NCBI RefSeq assembly: GCF_000027325.1
Contig: NC_000908.2
Location: 330,001 to 362,000, forward strand
Length of the DNA stretch: 32,000 nucleotides
Reading direction: 5' to 3'
Source of the DNA: Mycoplasmoides genitalium G37
GTDB taxonomy: Bacteria; Bacillota_I; Bacilli_A; Mycoplasmatales; Mycoplasmoidaceae
Shown here: positions 1-23,682 of the stretch, piece after piece
How positions within the stretch are numbered: the first letter of the stretch is position 1
Layout: every line of letters begins with the position of its first letter
Notes under the pieces: model-generated
Databases searched by the model: none
Told to the model about the DNA's origin: nothing
The model's input: the letters and a program-made list of their open reading frames with translations, nothing else
Made by a program: the position numbers and the translations under genes

Positions 1-985
1 CAGTAGCAACAATACACATCTCAGGGTACTTAATAATAGGTGTACCTACAGCTGCTCCTAATGAACCGAAGTTAGTAACTGAAATAGTACCTTTATTCAA
101 ATCAGTCAACTTAATCTTTTTTGTTCTAGCTTTGTTAGCTAAATCAACAATTGCTTGGGCAATTTCAACCACAGATTTGGTTTGGGCTTGCTTAATGTTA
201 GGGACAATTAAACCTTCTTCAGTATCAACAGCAATTCCTACATTAATGTCATCATTTAAAACAATTTCGTTTTGATCAGGATCATAACTAGCGTTAAAAA
301 CAGGGAACTTCTTAAGCGCATTAACAATTGCTTTAACAAAGAAAGCAAAGTAAGAAATTTTCATGGAATACTTACTTAAAGCATAACCATTAACACTTTC
401 ACGATATTGTTTTAACTTGGTTGCATTAACATAAAAAGTTAATACAGTGGTTGGGATAATTGCGTGCGACTTTGTCATTGCTTCTGCAATCGCTTTACGC
501 ATTGTTGAGATAGCAATGGTTTTCTGTTCAGTTTTACTTTCTGGTTTTTGGGTTGTTTCTACAGTAATGTTAGTACTACTTGCAACTTTAGTGTCTTTAA
601 CAGCTGGAGTTGCATGAGGTTTTACTCCAAAGATAGGAAAGAGGTTATCAGAAACCTTAATTTCCCCTACTACTGAAGCCCCCGCTTCTTTTACCTTAGC
701 TACTTCTTCAGTTGGTTGAGGTTTTGGTTCAACAAGTGGTGTACTAGTCTTTTCACCAATAACTGCCATCACCTGACCAATGCTAACAACATCACCAACT
801 TTAACATTAATAGCACTAATTGTACCTGCAAAAGGAGAAGGTAGTTCAGTTGTAACTTTATCAGTTTCAACAACAAATAAAGCTTCATCTATCTTGATCT
901 GATCACCAACTTGTTTTAAGATTTCAGTTACTTTTCCTTCATGTAAACCCTCACCAACATCAGTGAATTTAAACTCATTTGCCAT
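1..985 (-). CDS. pdhC: Pyruvate dehydrogenase E2 (dihydrolipoamide acetyltransferase), N-terminal part; the 3' end lies beyond the window start
   Basis: ATG at 985-983. The N-terminus MANEFKFTDVGEGLHEGKVTEILKQVGDQIKIDEALFVVETDKVTTELPSPFAGTISAINVKVGDVV is a lipoyl domain with the ETDK motif. It lies downstream of pdhA and pdhB on the same strand. Confidence 0.9.
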   Translation of the reverse strand, partial: MANEFKFTDVGEGLHEGKVTEILKQVGDQIKIDEALFVVETDKVTTELPSPFAGTISAINVKVGDVVSIGQVMAVIGEKTSTPLVEPKPQPTEEVAKVKEAGASVVGEIKVSDNLFPIFGVKPHATPAVKDTKVASSTNITVETTQKPESKTEQKTIAISTMRKAIAEAMTKSHAIIPTTVLTFYVNATKLKQYRESVNGYALSKYSMKISYFAFFVKAIVNALKKFPVFNASYDPDQNEIVLNDDINVGIAVDTEEGLIVPNIKQAQTKSVVEIAQAIVDLANKARTKKIKLTDLNKGTISVTNFGSLGAAVGTPIIKYPEMCIVAT

Positions 986-1041
986 ATCGTATTGATAGTA
1001 CTTAAAGTTTAAATTTAATAGTAGTGATCTATAACAAATAA

Positions 1042-1069
1042 AAAAAGCCAGTTTAGTTACTGGCTTTTT
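1042..1069 (-). terminator. Intrinsic terminator hairpin (symmetric, could act on both strands) between the micro-ORF and pdhC
   Basis: 11-bp perfect stem aaaaagccagt (1042-1052) / actggcttttt (1059-1069) with loop ttagtt. On the minus strand the stem is followed by a U-run (complement of the A-run at 1038-1046). Confidence 0.7.
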
Positions 1070-1092
1070 AGTTGTTAGACAAAAATTTTGTC

Positions 1093-1164
1093 TTACTTTT
1101 TACAGCAGCTGTTGCACTTAGCGCATTCGCACTTGCATTGGCAGCATTTCTTGTTGTCTTCCAT
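1093..1164 (-). CDS. Candidate 23-aa cysteine-rich micro-protein MEDNKKCCQCKCECAKCNSCCKK
   Basis: ATG 1164-1162, TAA 1095-1093, 8 Cys in 23 residues. It starts 70 nt after the pdhB stop and ends 23 nt before the hairpin terminator. It is locally GC-rich in an AT-rich spacer. Too short for the ORF track. Confidence 0.4.
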   Translation of the reverse strand: MEDNKKCCQCKCECAKCNSCCKK

Positions 1165-1234
1165 CACTTTAATTTATGAAATGAGGTACCTAGCTCTAAA
1201 AAATAAAGCTAGGTAACTATATTTTAAAAAAGTG

Positions 1235-2215
1235 TTATTTTAAAAGTTGATTAACTGCATCAATAACCCGTGCATTAATTTCAAACTGGTATTTTTCACC
1301 TCTAGCTAAAGGCACAACAATATCAAACCCAGTTACCCGTTGTGGGGCTTTTTTGAGATAAGTGAATAGTTCTTCAGTTACTGAAGTGATAATCTCTGCA
1401 CTTGTAGTGAAACTTTTCACCGCTTCAGTCACTACAAGTAGTCTTCCTGTTTTCTTCACTGAGTTAAATACTGTTTGTTTATCTCAAGGGGAGATAGTAC
1501 GCAAGTCAATTAACTCAATTCCCTTATCTTTCAATTCCCCGCTGTAAACTAAGTTAATTAAATCAAACATTGTAGGACCATAGCTAACTATTGTAAGTTC
1601 ACTACCTTCACTAATCAAGTTGGCTTCACCAATAGGGACAGTGTAATAATCACTAGGAATCTCCTGACGAAAAGCACGATAAAGCTTCTTTGGTTCAAAA
1701 AAGATAACAGGATCAGGTGATTCAATAGCAGCTAGAAAAAGTCCTTTGGTATCATAAGGATTTGATGGCATCACTGTTTTAAGCCCAGCAATCTGTGCAT
1801 AAATTGCTTCCAATGTTTCACTGTGGTGTTCCAATGCTTTAATCCCCCCACCCATTGGCATCCTCACTACTAGTGGAGCGGTATATACACCACGAGAACG
1901 GTTTCTAATCCTAGCAGCATGGACAAAGATTTGAAACATAGCTGGGAATGAAAAGCCTGAAAACTGGATCTCTACAATAGGTTTAAGACCACCTATAGCA
2001 GCCCCAACCCCAATACCAGCCATAGAGTTTTCTGCTATAGGACAATCCCATACCCTTTCACTCCCATACTTTTGTTGTAAGCCTTTAGTTGCACGGAACA
2101 CACCCCCTTCAAAACCAGCGTCCTGGCCATAGAGTACAACGTTTTGATCTCTTTCCAGTGCAAGATCCATTGCGTTGTTTAACGCTTCAATGTTATTTAC
2201 TTGGATTTTTGACAT
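1235..2215 (-). CDS. pdhB: Pyruvate dehydrogenase E1 beta subunit, 326 aa
   Basis: Track ORFs 1235..1459 and 1484..2215 are in the same frame and joined across TGA. The stop at 1235-1237 is a real TAA. The sequence MSKIQVNNIEALNNAMDLALERD...VWDCPIAENSMAGIGVGAAIGGLKPIVEIQF is typical of E1-beta. Confidence 0.95.
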
Positions 2216-4855: not shown

Positions 4856-5398
4856 CTAGTAATGTAATAAAATCTTGCTAACCACATTTGGTTGTAACTT
4901 AGCTTTACCATTGAGTTTTTTCAGCTCAATTAAAAAGCAATATCCCACAGTTTCACCATTTAACTGTTTAAGTAATTGGTCAATAGCAGCAACTGTTCCA
5001 GCAGTGGCAAGTACATCATCAACAATAACACACCTTTTAGCATTATTAGCTTGGATTAATGAAGTGGTTGACATCTCCAATACAGCATGTTTTCTGTACT
5101 CCAAATCATAGCTAGCACTAATTAATTGCCCTGGGAGTTTATTGGCTTTTCTAACCAATACTAACGGGAGTTGGGTTTTAGAAGCTAATGCTCCCCCAAA
5201 GATAAAACCCCTCGCTTCAGGACATACTATCGCTTCTGCATTAATAGCTTTAATAAACTGTGCCATTTGGGTTAGCACAAAATTAAATAGTTGGGGATTG
5301 GAAAATACTGGGGTAATGTCATAAAACAATGTACCTTGGTTGGGAAAATTTTCAAAGCGCTTGATTGCTTGATCAAGCAACTTAAAGTTTTGATCCAT
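4856..5398 (-). CDS. apt: Adenine phosphoribosyltransferase, 180 aa
   Basis: PRPP-binding motif VIVDDVLATAGTV. I prefer the ATG at 5398 (MDQNFKLL...) over the upstream alternative start at 5434 because the upstream gene's true TAA stop is at 5412-5414. Confidence 0.88.
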   Translation of the reverse strand: MDQNFKLLDQAIKRFENFPNQGTLFYDITPVFSNPQLFNFVLTQMAQFIKAINAEAIVCPEARGFIFGGALASKTQLPLVLVRKANKLPGQLISASYDLEYRKHAVLEMSTTSLIQANNAKRCVIVDDVLATAGTVAAIDQLLKQLNGETVGYCFLIELKKLNGKAKLQPNVVSKILLHY

Positions 5399-13883: not shown

Positions 13884-13957
13884 TGGAGCGAGTAATCGGA
13901 ATCGAACCGACACGATCAGCTTGGAAGGCTGATGTTCTACCATTAAACTATACTCGC
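13884..13957 (-). tRNA. tRNA-Gly (anticodon UCC), CCA encoded
   Basis: Reverse complement GCGAGTATAGTTTAATGGTAGAACATCAGCCTTCCAAGCTGATCGTGTCGGTTCGATTCCGATTACTCGCTCCA. It folds as a cloverleaf, with anticodon loop CTTCCAA and T-loop GTTCGATTC. Confidence 0.93.
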
Positions 13958-13964
13958 ACAAATT

Positions 13965-14050
13965 TGGTGCCCAAAGCCGGACTTGAACCGGCACACCATT
14001 ACTGGCGTGGGATCTTAAATCCCATGCGTCTACCATTCCGCCACTTGGGC
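13965..14050 (-). tRNA. tRNA-Leu (anticodon UAA), long variable arm, CCA encoded
   Basis: Reverse complement GCCCAAGTGGCGGAATGGTAGACGCATGGGATTTAAGATCCCACGCCAGTAATGGTGTGCCGGTTCAAGTCCGGCTTTGGGCACCA. Anticodon loop TTTAAGA. Confidence 0.92.
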
Positions 14051-14125
14051 TGGTGACCCACCCGAGGATCGAACTCGGGACCCTTTGATTAAAAGTCAAA
14101 TGCTCTACCGCTGAGCTAGTGAGTC
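14051..14125 (-). tRNA. tRNA-Lys (anticodon UUU), CCA encoded
   Basis: Reverse complement GACTCACTAGCTCAGCGGTAGAGCATTTGACTTTTAATCAAAGGGTCCCGAGTTCGATCCTCGGGTGGGTCACCA. Anticodon loop CTTTTAA. It abuts tRNA-Leu with no spacer. Confidence 0.93.
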
Positions 14126-14171
14126 TTTTTGATAGGGAGTTAACCCTATCTTTAGAAATTTAAGCTTTAAC

Positions 14172-14246
14172 TGGCTGGGATGGATGGGATCGAACCATCG
14201 CATGATAGAGTCAAAGTCTATTGCCTTACCGCTTGGCTACATCCCA
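14172..14246 (-). tRNA. tRNA-Gln (anticodon UUG), CCA encoded
   Basis: Reverse complement TGGGATGTAGCCAAGCGGTAAGGCAATAGACTTTGACTCTATCATGCGATGGTTCGATCCCATCCATCCCAGCCA. Anticodon loop CTTTGAC. Confidence 0.9.
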
Positions 14247-14250
14247 AAAA

Positions 14251-14337
14251 TGGTGGACAGGGAGAGATTCGAACTCCCGAAACCATAAAGGTGTCTGATC
14301 TACAGTCAGAAGCGTTTAGCCACTTCGCTACCTGTCC
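14251..14337 (-). tRNA. tRNA-Tyr (anticodon GUA), long variable arm, CCA encoded
   Basis: Reverse complement GGACAGGTAGCGAAGTGGCTAAACGCTTCTGACTGTAGATCAGACACCTTTATGGTTTCGGGAGTTCGAATCTCTCCCTGTCCACCA. Anticodon loop CTGTAGA. Confidence 0.9.
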
Positions 14338-18882: not shown

Positions 18883-19137
18883 ATGCAAACGCATGAAATT
18901 CTTTTAAAAATTAAAGAAATTGCTAAATCAAAAAACTTTAATCTTAATTTAGATGAAAAGACAATAAATCAACCACTTCGTGAGTTGAAAATCGATTCAC
19001 TTGATATGTTTAGTATTGTTGTTAGTCTAGAAAATGAATTTGGGATTAGTTTTGATGATGAAAAGTTAATGAATCTAAAAAATCTTGCTGACTTGGTTTT
19101 AGAAGTTAAAAACCTTTTAGCAAAAAAAGGGGTATAG
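18883..19137 (+). CDS. acpP: Acyl carrier protein, 84 aa
   Basis: Track ORF. Phosphopantetheine attachment motif LKIDSLDMFSIVVSLENEF (DSL). TAG stop. Confidence 0.9.
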   Translation: MQTHEILLKIKEIAKSKNFNLNLDEKTINQPLRELKIDSLDMFSIVVSLENEFGISFDDEKLMNLKNLADLVLEVKNLLAKKGV

Positions 19138-19202
19138 TTCAAAGGTAGAACATCTGTCTTCAAAATAGAGTGTTGTGGGTTCGAGTCCTGCTACCCCTGC
19201 CA
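19128..19202 (+). tRNA. tRNA-Trp (anticodon UCA, reads UGA/UGG), CCA encoded
   Basis: AGGGGTA TA GTTC AAAGGTA GAAC A TCTGT CTTCAAA ATAGA GTGTT GTGGG TTCGAGT CCTGC TACCCCT G CCA folds as a 75-nt cloverleaf. Its first 10 nt overlap the last codons and the stop of acpP. Confidence 0.9.
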
Positions 19203-20406: not shown

Positions 20407-21780
<1,374 letters not shown>

Positions 21781-21790
21781 AGAAATATTT

Positions 21791-23682
21791 TTATGAGTTT
21801 AAAACAAGGTAATGCAGATAACTAGCTAAATCAACAACTGGAGGTTTTGTAGCCCCATTTCTTAAATCCAAATTATGTAAGTTTTGCTGTTTAAGTAAAT
21901 CCATAAATTTACCATCTTGAACTTTTATCTGTTCTTTTACGTGTAAAGTGAAAAGTAGTTGATTGTCTTTAAATTGAAATAGAGAACCTGGATAATCAGT
22001 ATTTTGAACTAAGTTATAATCCAAATCACCATCAACTATGAACTTGACATCCATTTCACCATTTCATGATGAAGGGATACCAGAAAAAGGTGCAAATCAA
22101 CTAAATAACCCAGTTAATTTGTATCCACCTTGGTACTTTATGTCAATTTCAAATTTAAATTTGTATGGATAATGTTGCCTAAATTCAATTCCATTATTTT
22201 TTCAATCAATGGTTGGATTATTTTCCTTGTTTTCAATTTTTATGCTTGTTAAGTTTAGTTTTATGTCAGTATAGGAAGTTAGCTTTCCTCTTAATCAGTC
22301 AGACATATAAAGACCTTCAAGCCCTTGTCTAGGAAACTGAATTCCTTTTTCACTAAAGGCTTTCTTTGCATTTTCACTTTCATCTTTTTTATTATTTTTG
22401 TAATAATCTGACGTTGCTTTAGTAAAGCTATTAATTAAAAGTGAAAAAGTTTTATTTTTATCAGCAGCAAAAGAAGTTTTTAGAGCATCTATTAGTTGAG
22501 TCTTATCAGTAACATCTTTCTTTTGATTTTTTCAATAATCTTTAAATTCTTTAGCATTTTCAAATGATTTATTAAATTGTTCTTGTTGTTCTTTTAAGCG
22601 CTTAGCTTCCTCTTCTTTTCGCTTAAGTTCTTCTTCTTGTTTTCTTCTTTCCTCAGCTAAAATTCGTTGTTGTTCTTCATAATCAGCTTTAGCTTTTTCA
22701 CGTTCTTTTTTGAATGGTTCAATTATTTCTTTTTCAAATTTTGTTTTAGCTAAATCTAGTTGTTCATCAATTTTTAAAACTGAATTAAAGATATTTGTAT
22801 TGGAAAGAAAAAGTGAATCACTTACAGCAGTTTTAGCTATTGAAGTGAGATCATTTTGATTTTTATCAACAAGTTTATTAATTAGAGGTTTTCAAAACAA
22901 TTGGGTATTTAGATCGTTACCATTAAAGCTATTTTGCAACTCTTGTAAATTCAAAAAATTAGAAGTTTGGGCTTTTAAATCAAATTGCAAGTTAACAGTG
23001 TTGTTACCACCTTCATAATCAACTTCAAAATCCATTTTGATTTCAAAGCTATAACGAATCTTATCTTTAATAACAATGTCATTTTTTTAACCAATTCAAG
23101 ATTAAAGTCTTTTAATTGAATTTTCTTTAAGTTGTATTGATTAAATATTTCAACAATACTTTCGGTAATGTTTAAACCTTTTGGATGCAATTGTGGAAAG
23201 AAATTTTCATTAAGGAATTTAAAAAAATTCTGTGGAACTTTAGGCAATTTATCTTCATCATTAATTGGAAAAATTTTGTTAGTTTCATTAATGCTTGATT
23301 ACAGCCTATTTAATAAATCAACTGTTTTTTTAATACCTGATTTAAAACCACTTAAAAGATGAAAAATATCTATAACATTAAAGTTCCTAGGATAAAATTC
23401 ATTCTTAAATTTCTCTTGAAATAAGTCAAAGTTTTTATCATAATCTTTCTCTTTAGCAATATAGTTTTCTTCTTGCTCTGTTATAGCTGTTTGCTGTTGG
23501 AGTAGAATACTATTTTCTCTACTATTTGTTGTACTTGATTTTCTTAGACTAGGTTGACTTAAATTTGCAGCTGAGCCATTATAGATAGAAGGGACAATAA
23601 GTACACCAGCAGTTAAAGTTGATGCAAAAGAGACAAAGAGAAAAGTTTTAATTTTAAAACGAGATTTTTTGATAGCTTTCAA
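21791..23682 (-). pseudogene. Disrupted gene for a signal-anchored coiled-coil protein (probably MG288, of the MG032/MG096/MG288 paralog family). It has an in-frame TAA and a frameshift at an A7 tract. Its largest intact piece is 21791..23035 (414 aa from ATG)
   Basis: Piece A, 23302-23682: TTG start, MKAIKKSRFKIKTFLFVSFASTLTAGVLIV..., ends at a true TAA at 23299-23301. Piece B continues sensibly in the same frame (SSINETNKIFPINDEDKLPKVPQNFFKFLNENFFPQLHPKGLNITESIVEIFNQYNLKKIQLKDFNLELVKK) up to the T7 tract at 23082-23088. Piece C is in another frame. It is closed by TAA at 23087-23089, right at the tract, and is then open to TAA at 21791-21793 with only TGA interruptions. One extra A would join B to C. 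Confidence 0.7.

What the first reader, a model, noticed from the sequence alone, without database searches (positions are those of the whole stretch)
1093..1164. Cysteine-packed 23-codon micro-ORF with its own terminator between pdhB and pdhC
The pdh genes are tightly packed (17-27 nt spacers), except for a 249-nt gap between pdhB and pdhC. On the coding strand this gap holds ATG...TAA encoding MEDNKKCCQCKCECAKCNSCCKK. That is 8 Cys in 23 residues, in CC and CxC spacing like metallothionein or metal-thiolate peptides. A strong hairpin with a U-run follows 23 nt later. The run of TGC/TGT codons makes a local GC island in AT-rich spacer, which is hard to explain by drift. It could be a metal- or redox-binding micro-protein. 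It could be a Cys-sensing leader peptide gating read-through into pdhC/pdhD. It could also be an RNA element that only looks coding.
Basis: seen in the sequence. Interest (0 to 1): 0.72.

Follow-up and report, generated by a model that had tools for sequence, protein, structure and literature searches.

The report
Known cysteine-rich mini-gene (MP200 orthologue)
The cysteine-packed 23-codon reading frame between pdhB and pdhC is real and conserved, but it is the Mycoplasma genitalium copy of the MP200 small RNA and its cysteine-rich peptide, described in M. pneumoniae and M. genitalium since 2000-2005; only its cellular function is still open.

Summary
On the minus strand at 1164..1093 lies ATG...TAA encoding MEDNKKCCQCKCECAKCNSCCKK (8 Cys in 23 residues). 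It sits in the only long spacer of the pdh cluster (249 nt), and an intrinsic terminator follows 23 nt later.

M. pneumoniae has the same arrangement at the same place: a -10 box, a 5' hairpin, and ATG-GAA-GAC... encoding MEDKKCCGCKTETANCSKCNCGGCKCCQK. A hairpin follows the stop codon, then the same GCCAGT/ACTGGC terminator. All indels are whole codons. Seven Cys columns are kept. Half of the differing codons are synonymous in the Cys frame, against 0-2 of 8-10 in the other five frames.

This is MP200 RNA / MPN391a (Göhlmann 2000; Zimmerman & Herrmann 2005). In M. pneumoniae it has its own mapped start and end, is extremely abundant and is non-essential. Its 29-residue peptide is routinely used as an N-terminal fusion tag.

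A Cys-sensing attenuator is not supported. No antiterminator can form, and pdhC has its own mapped transcription start. Sampled relatives (M. amphoriforme, testudinis, alvi, pirum, gallisepticum, imitans) lack the ORF.

The best reading is a self-contained, highly expressed mini-gene for a metallothionein-like thiol peptide. That function is inferred, not shown. Novelty: already known.

The parts
1221..1226 (-). -10 promoter box TAAAAT of the mini-gene, 9 nt after the pdhB stop codon. An overlapping alternative box TATAGT lies at 1221..1216.
   Evidence: It aligns with TAGAAT (extended TGtTAGAAT) of M. pneumoniae. The promoter scan found TATAGT. The M. pneumoniae TSS was mapped at 469317, which is L083 x=3541, just downstream of that box. 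The TSS in this genome is inferred at about 1217-1214.
1187..1215 (-). 5'-terminal hairpin of the transcript (UACCUAGCUUUA...UAGAGCUAGGUA, 12 pairs).
   Evidence: MFE and centroid fold. M. pneumoniae has a 16-pair hairpin at the same place. It shares the CCUAG/CUAGG base, but the upper stem differs in sequence. The role as an mRNA-stabilising 5' stem-loop is inferred.
1161..1186 (-). Weak hairpin that pairs the AUG with an upstream CCUCAU; there is no Shine-Dalgarno sequence.
   Evidence: CCAUUU pairs with AGAUGG in M. pneumoniae, and CCUCAUUU with AAGUGAUGG here. Any function is not established.
1093..1164 (-). 23-codon ORF MEDNKKCCQCKCECAKCNSCCKK plus TAA. It has 8 Cys, 6 Lys, and no aromatic, His or aliphatic residues; 2.6 kDa, pI 8.5.
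   Evidence: The orthologue is at L083:3606-3695. BLASTP gives E=4e-5, with 17 invariant columns. Codon test.
1077..1093 (-). Hairpin starting at the last base of the stop codon (AGACAAAAUUUUUGUCU).
   Evidence: M. pneumoniae has a longer hairpin (GGCGAAAUUUcucuAAAUUUCGUU) at the same place with a different sequence. There it is followed by UUUU ending at x=3721, which equals the mapped TTS 469137.
1034..1069 (-). Intrinsic terminator: AAAAAGCCAGU-aacuaa-ACUGGCUUUUU followed by a U-run.
   Evidence: The hairpin alone folds at -13.4 kcal/mol. The GCCAGT/ACTGGC stem is conserved in M. pneumoniae with a different loop.
1006..1011 (-). -10-like TAAACT, the candidate promoter of pdhC itself.
   Evidence: It aligns with TAAAAT of M. 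pneumoniae, where the pdhC TSS was mapped at 469068, 13 nt before its ATG. For this genome it is inferred only.
1235..2215 (-). pdhB (E1 beta), TGA read as Trp; the upstream neighbour.
   Evidence: It is 89% identical to M. pneumoniae PdhB.
1..985 (-). pdhC (E2), 5' part, running off the window; the downstream neighbour.
   Evidence: MANEFKFTDVGEGLHEG is shared with M. pneumoniae.

Best explanation
The 249-nt pdhB-pdhC spacer holds a complete, self-contained mini-gene. It is the M. genitalium orthologue of M. pneumoniae MP200 RNA / MPN391a.

A -10 promoter (TAAAAT, 1226-1221) lies just after the pdhB stop. It would start a transcript of about 175-185 nt near 1217-1214. The RNA opens with a strong 5'-terminal hairpin and carries a Shine-Dalgarno-less AUG at 1164. 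It is translated into the 23-residue peptide MEDNKKCCQCKCECAKCNSCCKK. It ends with a post-stop hairpin and an intrinsic terminator (1069-1034). pdhC/pdhD are then transcribed mainly from their own promoter downstream of that terminator.

Shown here: the ORF, the hairpins and the terminator; their conservation in M. pneumoniae; and coding-type substitution in the Cys frame only.

Shown by others for M. pneumoniae: separate TSS and TTS, very high RNA level, non-essentiality, and peptide synthesis.

Inferred: the peptide has 35% Cys, is Lys-rich and has no aromatic, His or aliphatic residues. Both species have 2 CC, 3 CxC and 2 CxxC motifs. It most likely works as a metallothionein-like thiolate peptide that buffers metal ions and/or oxidants. 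These organisms have a flavin NADH oxidase next door and lack catalase and glutathione (the last point is from my own knowledge).

My probabilities: identity as the MP200 orthologue and a translated mini-gene about 0.9; thiol, metal or redox buffer as the actual function about 0.35-0.4. The confidence figure given for this explanation refers to the identity and mini-gene architecture.
For: Anatomy.

Orthologue in four M. pneumoniae genomes, same position and strand.

Peptide homology: E=4e-5, 17 invariant columns of which 7 are Cys. All indels are whole codons.

Codon test: in the Cys frame 5 of 10 differing codons are synonymous. In the other five frames 4 of 46 are (Fisher P=0.006).

Literature:
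- Its Table S2 gives TSS 469317, TTS 469137 and essentiality NE, with the pdhC TSS at 469068.
- Its Table S5 gives log2CPKM 14.2 and 12.4, the highest of all listed smORFs.
- NCBI record 'MP200 [Mycoplasmoides pneumoniae M129]' has exactly this 29-residue sequence.
- The mp200 peptide is used as an N-terminal fusion tag.
- The title of Göhlmann et al. 2000 names a small RNA in the pdh cluster of both species.

Composition criteria of metallothioneins are met.
Against: Nothing here shows transcription or translation in M. genitalium itself.

The exact 23- and 24-residue peptides are in no public protein set searched.

There is no sequence membership in any metallothionein family: Pfam and NCBIfam gave nothing, PDB gave nothing, and human MT2A gave E=0.38.

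The comparison rests on two species only. The codon test against the +1 frame alone is weak (P=0.07).

The gene is non-essential in culture and absent from the pdh region of all other sampled relatives, so any role is dispensable or niche-specific.

The extreme G/C-ending codon choice and the strong folding could reflect selection on the RNA rather than on the peptide.
Confidence: 0.85

Rival explanations
1. The RNA is the main functional product, either as a structured small RNA or as a dual-function RNA. The ORF is translated, but the peptide is secondary.
For: The locus was discovered as a small RNA (title). The RNA level is far above any other smORF mRNA. Folding is much stronger than shuffles, z -5.1 here and -8.9 in M. 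pneumoniae. Three hairpins are kept with different sequences. GC3 of 0.70 and 7 of 8 TGC codons would strengthen UGC/GCA pairing.
Against: Synonymous changes are concentrated in the Cys frame, the ATG-GAA-GAC start is conserved, and all indels are whole codons. The peptide is reported as synthesised in M. pneumoniae. No Rfam family matches. No target or partner is known.
Confidence: 0.2
2. It is a Cys-codon leader peptide that senses Cys-tRNA charging and gates read-through of the terminator into pdhC/pdhD, as in classical attenuation.
For: A short ORF with 8 Cys codons lies upstream of an intrinsic terminator and of pdhC on the same strand.
Against: No antiterminator forms. In the nascent transcript the terminator's 5' arm gains only -0.5 kcal/mol (M. 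genitalium) or -1.8 kcal/mol (M. pneumoniae) from any alternative pairing, against -13.4 and -15.0 for the terminator. The stop codon lies 23-31 nt before the stem, and a separate hairpin sits in between. In M. pneumoniae pdhC has its own TSS 13 nt before its ATG and MP200 has its own TTS. The downstream genes have nothing to do with Cys supply.
Confidence: 0.04
3. The real product is the overlapping +1-frame ORF. In M. pneumoniae this is a 47-residue, TTG-initiated, Ala/Val/Lys-rich protein. It is the ORF annotated as a hypothetical protein in many genomes and the one whose coordinates are listed for MPN391a.
For: The Table S2 start codon and stop (469290/469147) and the 'expected 5.3 kDa' in Table S5 match this 47-residue ORF (5258 Da), not the 3.1-kDa Cys peptide. 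It is deposited as a hypothetical protein in at least 36 contigs. Its tryptic peptides are far easier to detect by MS, so the single MS peptide may belong to it. The frame is open in both species.
Against: In this window that frame has no ATG, GTG or TTG before the last few codons. The M. pneumoniae TTG lies inside the paired 3' arm of the 5' hairpin. Only 1 of 10 differing codons is synonymous. An open +1 frame is forced by TGC repeats, which read GCN (Ala) in that frame.
Confidence: 0.04
4. The plus strand encodes a small membrane peptide, MLDKNFVLLFTAAVALSAFALALAAFLVVFHHFNLWNEVPSSKK (1072-1206, TTG start), and the Cys frame is its mirror image.
For: The antisense frame is open in both species and looks like a transmembrane helix.
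Against: None of 10 differing codons is synonymous in that register. The frame is a forced consequence of TGC giving GCA and of the lack of TTA/CTA codons. The mapped RNA in M. pneumoniae is on the pdh strand. No promoter or terminator is placed to serve it. It is not in any protein collection.
Confidence: 0.01
5. It is a chance ORF in a spacer that merely carries a terminator for pdhAB and a promoter for pdhCD.
For: Cys-rich off-frame ORFs do occur by chance. M. gallisepticum and M. imitans have a spacer with a terminator and a promoter and no ORF.
Against: The ORF, its ATG, its Cys columns and its signals are conserved between two species whose flanking spacer has diverged. There are also published expression data.
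Confidence: 0.01

Closest known systems
MP200 RNA / MPN391a of Mycoplasma pneumoniae (Göhlmann et al. 2000, J Bacteriol 182:3281; Zimmerman & Herrmann 2005, FEMS Microbiol Lett 253:315; Lluch-Senar et al. 2015, PMC4332154)
   Same: It lies in the same slot between pdhB and pdhC on the same strand. The -10 boxes align. Both have a 5' hairpin with the CCUAG/CUAGG base, an ATG-GAA-GAC start and a KKCCxCK core. Both have 2 CC, 3 CxC and 2 CxxC motifs, a post-stop hairpin and a GCCAGT/ACTGGC terminator. The 2000 title already names M. genitalium.
   Different: It is 23 residues instead of 29 (whole-codon indels of 1, 3 and 4 codons). It has 8 Cys instead of 9. The spacer is shorter (249 against 318 nt), as is the predicted RNA (about 180 against about 210 nt). 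Its post-stop hairpin has no U-run. The peptide is not deposited in any protein set searched.
Metallothioneins (for example the 9-Cys beta domain of mammalian MT2; bacterial SmtA/BmtA; mycobacterial MymT)
   Same: It is small, about one third Cys, Lys-rich and free of aromatic residues and His. It has CC, CxC and CxxC spacing, and a Cys count (8-9) like one three-metal cluster domain (the MT properties are from general knowledge).
   Different: There is no detectable homology. It is half the size of the known bacterial metallothioneins. Metal binding has never been tested.
Leader-peptide transcription attenuators (trpL, hisL, thrL type)
   Same: A short ORF rich in one amino acid's codons is followed by an intrinsic terminator upstream of an operon.
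   Different: There is no antiterminator alternative. The downstream gene has its own promoter. The downstream genes are not related to Cys. The RNA accumulates as a stable, very abundant species.
Dual-function small RNAs that also encode a peptide (for example SR1/SR1P of Bacillus, RNAIII/hld of Staphylococcus)
   Same: It is an abundant, highly structured small transcript with its own promoter and terminator, and it carries a translated micro-ORF.
   Different: No base-pairing target or RNA-level activity is known, and there is no sequence relation.

Membership tests
MP200 RNA / MPN391a (M. pneumoniae) | It lies in the pdhB-pdhC spacer on the pdh strand. | tested here: met
   Window 986-1234 (minus strand) against L083:3485-3802.
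MP200 RNA / MPN391a (M. pneumoniae) | It encodes a short Cys-rich peptide homologous to MEDKKCCGCKTETANCSKCNCGGCKCCQK. | tested here: met
   BLASTP E=4e-5. There are 17 invariant columns including 7 Cys. Indels are whole codons, and 5 of 10 differing codons are synonymous in this frame only. The reference sequence is NCBI CAG7571469.1 'MP200'.
MP200 RNA / MPN391a (M. pneumoniae) | It has its own promoter and its own intrinsic terminator, making a separate transcription unit. | tested here: inconclusive
   At sequence level this is met: TAAAAT aligns with TAGAAT and the terminator stem is conserved. The TSS and TTS are mapped only in M. pneumoniae. There are no expression data for this genome in the tools.
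MP200 RNA / MPN391a (M. pneumoniae) | The peptide is actually synthesised. | not testable with these tools
   Synthesis is reported for M. pneumoniae only (title cited; paper not held). The use of the peptide as a fusion tag shows that its start region works.
Metallothionein | Low mass, about 30% Cys in CC/CxC/CxxC motifs, and no aromatic residues or His. | tested here: met
   2.6 kDa, 35% Cys, 0 F/W/Y/H, 2 CC + 3 CxC + 2 CxxC.
Metallothionein | Sequence membership in a described metallothionein family. | tested here: not met
   No Pfam or NCBIfam hit at E<=10. No PDB relative. Human MT2A gives E=0.38.
Metallothionein | It forms metal-thiolate clusters. | not testable with these tools
   This needs metal titration and ESI-MS of the peptide.
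Leader-peptide attenuator | A short ORF enriched in the sensed amino acid's codons lies upstream of a terminator. | tested here: met
   Eight Cys codons, with the terminator 23 nt after the stop.
Leader-peptide attenuator | Mutually exclusive antiterminator and terminator structures are coupled to ribosome position. | tested here: not met
   Alternative pairing of the terminator's 5' arm is worth -0.5 and -1.8 kcal/mol, against -13.4 and -15.0 for the terminator. The terminator forms in the MFE and centroid folds of both species.
Leader-peptide attenuator | Downstream genes depend on the leader's promoter. | tested here: not met
   M. pneumoniae pdhC has its TSS at 469068, downstream of the MP200 TTS at 469137. 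An aligned -10-like TAAACT is present here. There is no direct data for M. genitalium.
Any Rfam RNA family | A score at or above the family's gathering threshold. | tested here: not met
   The best hit is Yfr10 at 31.3 bits against a threshold of 43. Only tRNAs pass in the whole window.

The most novel reading that the evidence does not exclude
MP200 and its M. genitalium orthologue would be the smallest bacterial metallothionein-type peptide: a single 8-9-Cys cluster domain made at very high level. It would act as the main low-molecular-weight thiol, metal and peroxide buffer of two pathogens that lack glutathione and catalase. It might be recycled by the neighbouring lipoamide/E3 system. It would have arisen de novo in the pdhB-pdhC spacer of the M. 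pneumoniae/M. genitalium lineage only. None of this has been tested. The held literature offers only 'predicted to be involved in peroxide resistance'.
Probability: 0.3. Interest if true: 0.5.

Novelty: already known. Interest (0 to 1): 0.18.

Why it matters
As a discovery it matters little. The small RNA in the pdh cluster of both species was published in 2000 and the M. pneumoniae peptide in 2005, and the peptide is now a routine fusion tag.

Three things remain useful.

(a) The M. genitalium peptide is not in any protein set I could query. The M. pneumoniae locus is widely annotated in the wrong (+1) frame as a 47-residue hypothetical protein. The two-species comparison settles the frame in favour of the Cys peptide.

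(b) The attenuator idea can be set aside.

(c) The function of one of the most abundant transcripts of two minimal-genome pathogens is still unknown. It is directly testable with metal binding, peroxide and metal stress, and start-codon against recoded mutants.

Tried and rejected
- Pfam, NCBIfam, PDB sequence and Rfam searches on the peptides and RNA gave nothing.
- The peptide is too short for the search for homologous proteins, whether given alone or as an alignment. A concatenated 52-residue query returned only the MP200 record itself.
The table-11 fragment gave two Logan contigs identical to the window, hence no polymorphism data.
- The genome-contig scan with PdhB did not return M. genitalium or M. 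pneumoniae. M. pneumoniae was reached through protein hits instead.
- Metagenome pattern scans: the strict pattern gave 0 hits. The looser pattern gave 120 or more chance hits, none a homologue. The recurring soil 'MEDKKCCELACC' is the out-of-frame overlap of a GGAGGA ribosome-binding site and the ATG of a signal-peptide protein.
- The Göhlmann 2000 and Zimmerman & Herrmann 2005 papers are not held, so their contents are cited only through titles and citing papers. My recollection that MP200 runs as species of about 205 and 210 nt is from memory and unverified. It does fit the roughly 208 nt predicted from L083 x≈3545 to x≈3752.
- No mention was found in the supplements of PMC6721554 or PMC6385055.
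- Structure prediction was not attempted, because the peptide is below the 30-residue limit and would probably not fold without metal.

Full report
WHAT IS THERE

The window is 32% GC and reads TGA as Trp, and it carries a tRNA with anticodon UCA. Its PdhB is 89% identical to that of M. pneumoniae, so it is M. genitalium-like. I did not see the organism named.

The genes nox, pdhA, pdhB and pdhC lie on the minus strand with spacers of 27, 17 and 249 nt. In the 249-nt spacer (986-1234) the minus strand carries ATG (1164) ... TAA (1095-1093). This encodes MEDNKKCCQCKCECAKCNSCCKK, with 8 Cys in 23 residues. An 11-pair hairpin with a U-run follows 23 nt later (1069-1042). It is the only terminator-like site in 800-1500.

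IS IT MORE THAN CHANCE?

Cys makes up 0.8% of the window's proteins and 2.9% of its six-frame translation. Even so, a 21-codon off-frame ORF inside apt has 7 Cys by accident, so Cys density alone does not prove a gene.

Two other things do. First, the ORF is 43% GC in a 25% GC spacer. Its GC3 is 0.70 against 0.24 in the genes (P=6e-6), and 7 of 8 Cys codons are TGC where the genes use TGC 15% of the time (P=1.4e-5).

Second, the ORF is conserved. I reached M. pneumoniae through PdhB homologues. Its 318-nt pdhB-pdhC spacer carries, at the same place and on the same strand, ATG GAA GAC ... encoding MEDKKCCGCKTETANCSKCNCGGCKCCQK, with 9 Cys in 29 residues. The two peptides align with E=4e-5 and 17 invariant columns, 7 of them Cys. 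Both contain exactly 2 CC, 3 CxC and 2 CxxC motifs and no aromatic, His or aliphatic residue. The length difference consists of whole-codon indels of 1, 3 and 4 codons.

Of the 10 aligned codons that differ, 5 are synonymous in the Cys frame (TGC/TGT, AAG/AAA). In the other five frames only 0-2 of 8-10 are synonymous (pooled 4 of 46; Fisher P=0.006). With only two species the test is small. Against the +1 frame alone it gives P=0.07.

THE SURROUNDINGS FORM A COMPLETE MINI-GENE

In the alignment of the two spacers, TAAAAT (1226-1221) matches TAGAAT of M. pneumoniae, which has the extended form TGtTAGAAT.

From there the predicted RNA (1217-1034) folds with z=-5.1. The M. pneumoniae RNA folds with z=-8.9. 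Both show the same order of elements:
- A strong 5'-terminal hairpin sharing a CCUAG/CUAGG base, with an upper stem of different sequence.
- A weak hairpin pairing the AUG.
- The ORF.
- A hairpin starting at the stop codon, with a different sequence in the two species.
- The GCCAGU/ACUGGC terminator.

There is no Shine-Dalgarno sequence. Downstream of the terminator, TAAACT (1011-1006) aligns with TAAAAT of M. pneumoniae, ahead of pdhC.

IT IS ALREADY KNOWN

Lluch-Senar et al. [quoted passage not shown]
- Their Table S2 gives TSS 469317, TTS 469137 and essentiality NE (65 transposon insertions). It gives the pdhC TSS as 469068, 13 nt before its start codon, and the pdhAB TTS as 469365.
- Their Table S5 gives log2CPKM 14.2 at 6 h and 12.4 at 96 h, the highest of all listed small ORFs.
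- Using the relation x = 472858 - coordinate, the TSS falls just after the TAGAAT box. The TTS falls on the UUUU after the post-stop hairpin of L083.

The reference lists give two papers, neither of which is held:
- Göhlmann et al. [quoted passage not shown]

NCBI holds the exact 29-residue sequence as 'MP200 [Mycoplasmoides pneumoniae M129]'. The peptide is routinely fused to reporters. The M. genitalium peptide itself is in no protein collection I could query.

A FRAME PROBLEM NOTICED ON THE WAY

The start codon and stop listed for MPN391a (469290/469147) and its 'expected 5.3 kDa' are not those of the Cys ORF, which is 3.1 kDa. They belong to a 47-codon, TTG-initiated ORF in the +1 frame (5258 Da). 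The same ORF is deposited as a 'hypothetical protein' in many M. pneumoniae genomes.

That frame is open in both species only because TGC repeats read GCN in the +1 frame. In this window it has no ATG, GTG or TTG before its last codons. In M. pneumoniae its TTG sits inside the paired arm of the 5' hairpin. Only 1 of 10 differing codons is synonymous. The comparison therefore favours the Cys frame. The single MS peptide in Table S5 cannot be assigned to either frame from what I could read.

RIVALS

Attenuator. In the nascent transcript the terminator's 5' arm gains only -0.5 kcal/mol here and -1.8 kcal/mol in M. pneumoniae from any alternative pairing. The terminator hairpin is worth -13.4 and -15.0. 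The stop codon lies 23-31 nt upstream with another hairpin in between. pdhC has its own mapped start in M. pneumoniae. Not supported.

Antisense membrane peptide (1072-1206, plus strand). None of 10 differing codons is synonymous, the strand is wrong relative to the mapped RNA, and there are no signals. Rejected.

RNA-level function. The abundance, the structure and the odd codon choice keep a dual-function RNA possible at about 0.2. It does not exclude the peptide.

DISTRIBUTION

The pdhB-pdhC spacer is much shorter in most relatives:
- 11-17 nt in several Mycoplasmoidaceae MAGs.
- 26-85 nt in M. pirum, M. alvi, M. amphoriforme, M. testudinis and two unnamed relatives.
- 148-157 nt in M. imitans and M. 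gallisepticum, with a terminator and a promoter but no ORF.

None of these 6-9 kb loci holds a comparable ORF. Metagenome scans found no homologue. The mini-gene thus appears confined to the M. pneumoniae/M. genitalium lineage. I could not scan whole genomes.

HOW IT MOST LIKELY WORKS

Shown: a conserved promoter-like box, hairpins, ORF and terminator, with coding-type constraint on the Cys frame.

Shown by others in the sister species: an independent, extremely abundant, non-essential transcript and a synthesised peptide.

Inferred:
- The 5'-terminal stem-loop and the 3' hairpins stabilise the mRNA.
- The peptide is 35% Cys, +3 net charge, and has no hydrophobic core. It is unstructured until its thiolates bind metal ions or react with oxidants. 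That is a metallothionein-like buffer sized like one three-metal, 9-Cys cluster.
- It lies next to the H2O2-relevant NADH oxidase/PDH cluster.

It is not a member of any metallothionein family by sequence, so this says what it works like, not what it belongs to. I put the identity at about 0.9 and this function at about 0.35-0.4.

VERDICT

The element is already known and its function is still open. Interest is low.

Noticed in passing
L083:3568-3711 (M. pneumoniae); the equivalent frame is at window 1207-1070 (minus strand): The MPN391a start and stop coordinates and the 'expected 5.3 kDa' in Lluch-Senar 2015 correspond to a 47-codon TTG ORF in the +1 frame of the MP200 RNA, not to the 29-codon Cys ORF. 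The same is true of a 'hypothetical protein' annotated in at least 36 M. pneumoniae contigs (P0122). In the M. genitalium window that frame has no usable start codon, so it is probably a mis-called frame.
   Followed up: yes
window 1093-1164: Codon usage is extreme for this genome. Seven of 8 Cys codons are TGC against 15% in the genes, 4 of 6 Lys codons are AAG against 26%, and GC3 is 0.70 against 0.24. This could reflect decoding by the single tRNA-Cys(GCA) in a very highly expressed message, or selection for UGC/GCA pairing in the RNA.
   Followed up: partly
L083:3696-3721: In M. pneumoniae the hairpin right after the stop codon is followed by UUUU, and the published TTS (469137) falls on its last U. 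The canonical terminator lies 30 nt further on. This suggests two alternative 3' ends. The M. genitalium post-stop hairpin (1093-1077) has no U-run.
   Followed up: partly
window 4968-5033 (minus strand, inside apt, off-frame): A 21-codon ORF, VCYCWWCTCHCWNSCCYWPIT, has 7 Cys. This shows that Cys-dense off-frame ORFs arise by chance in this genome.
   Followed up: yes
window 19128-19202 (+): A tRNA with anticodon UCA, which ARAGORN labels SeC. In a genome that reads TGA as Trp it is tRNA-Trp(UCA).
   Followed up: no
window 13884-14337 (-): A cluster of five tRNA genes: Gly(UCC), Leu(UAA), Lys(UUU), Gln(UUG), Tyr(GUA).
   Followed up: no
window 21453-21484: A perfect (TAG)x10.7 trinucleotide repeat. 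It lies where a plus-strand ORF (20647-21825) is predicted under code 4, in which TAG is a stop in one frame. Its nature was not examined.
   Followed up: no
L094:4979-5135 (M. gallisepticum); L001:4970-5117 (M. imitans): The pdhB-pdhC spacer of these relatives has a terminator hairpin (ATATTTATCGTTTTTATTAA...TTAATAAAAACGATAT) and a TAGAAT box but no micro-ORF. The mini-gene may therefore have arisen in a spacer that already split the operon.
   Followed up: partly
L117:4442-4480 and related soil-metagenome contigs (L112, L119, L147): A recurring 12-codon 'MEDKKCCELACC' was found by the pattern scan. It is the out-of-frame overlap of a GGAGGA ribosome-binding site and the ATG of a signal-peptide protein. 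It is an artefact and unrelated to the finding.
   Followed up: yes
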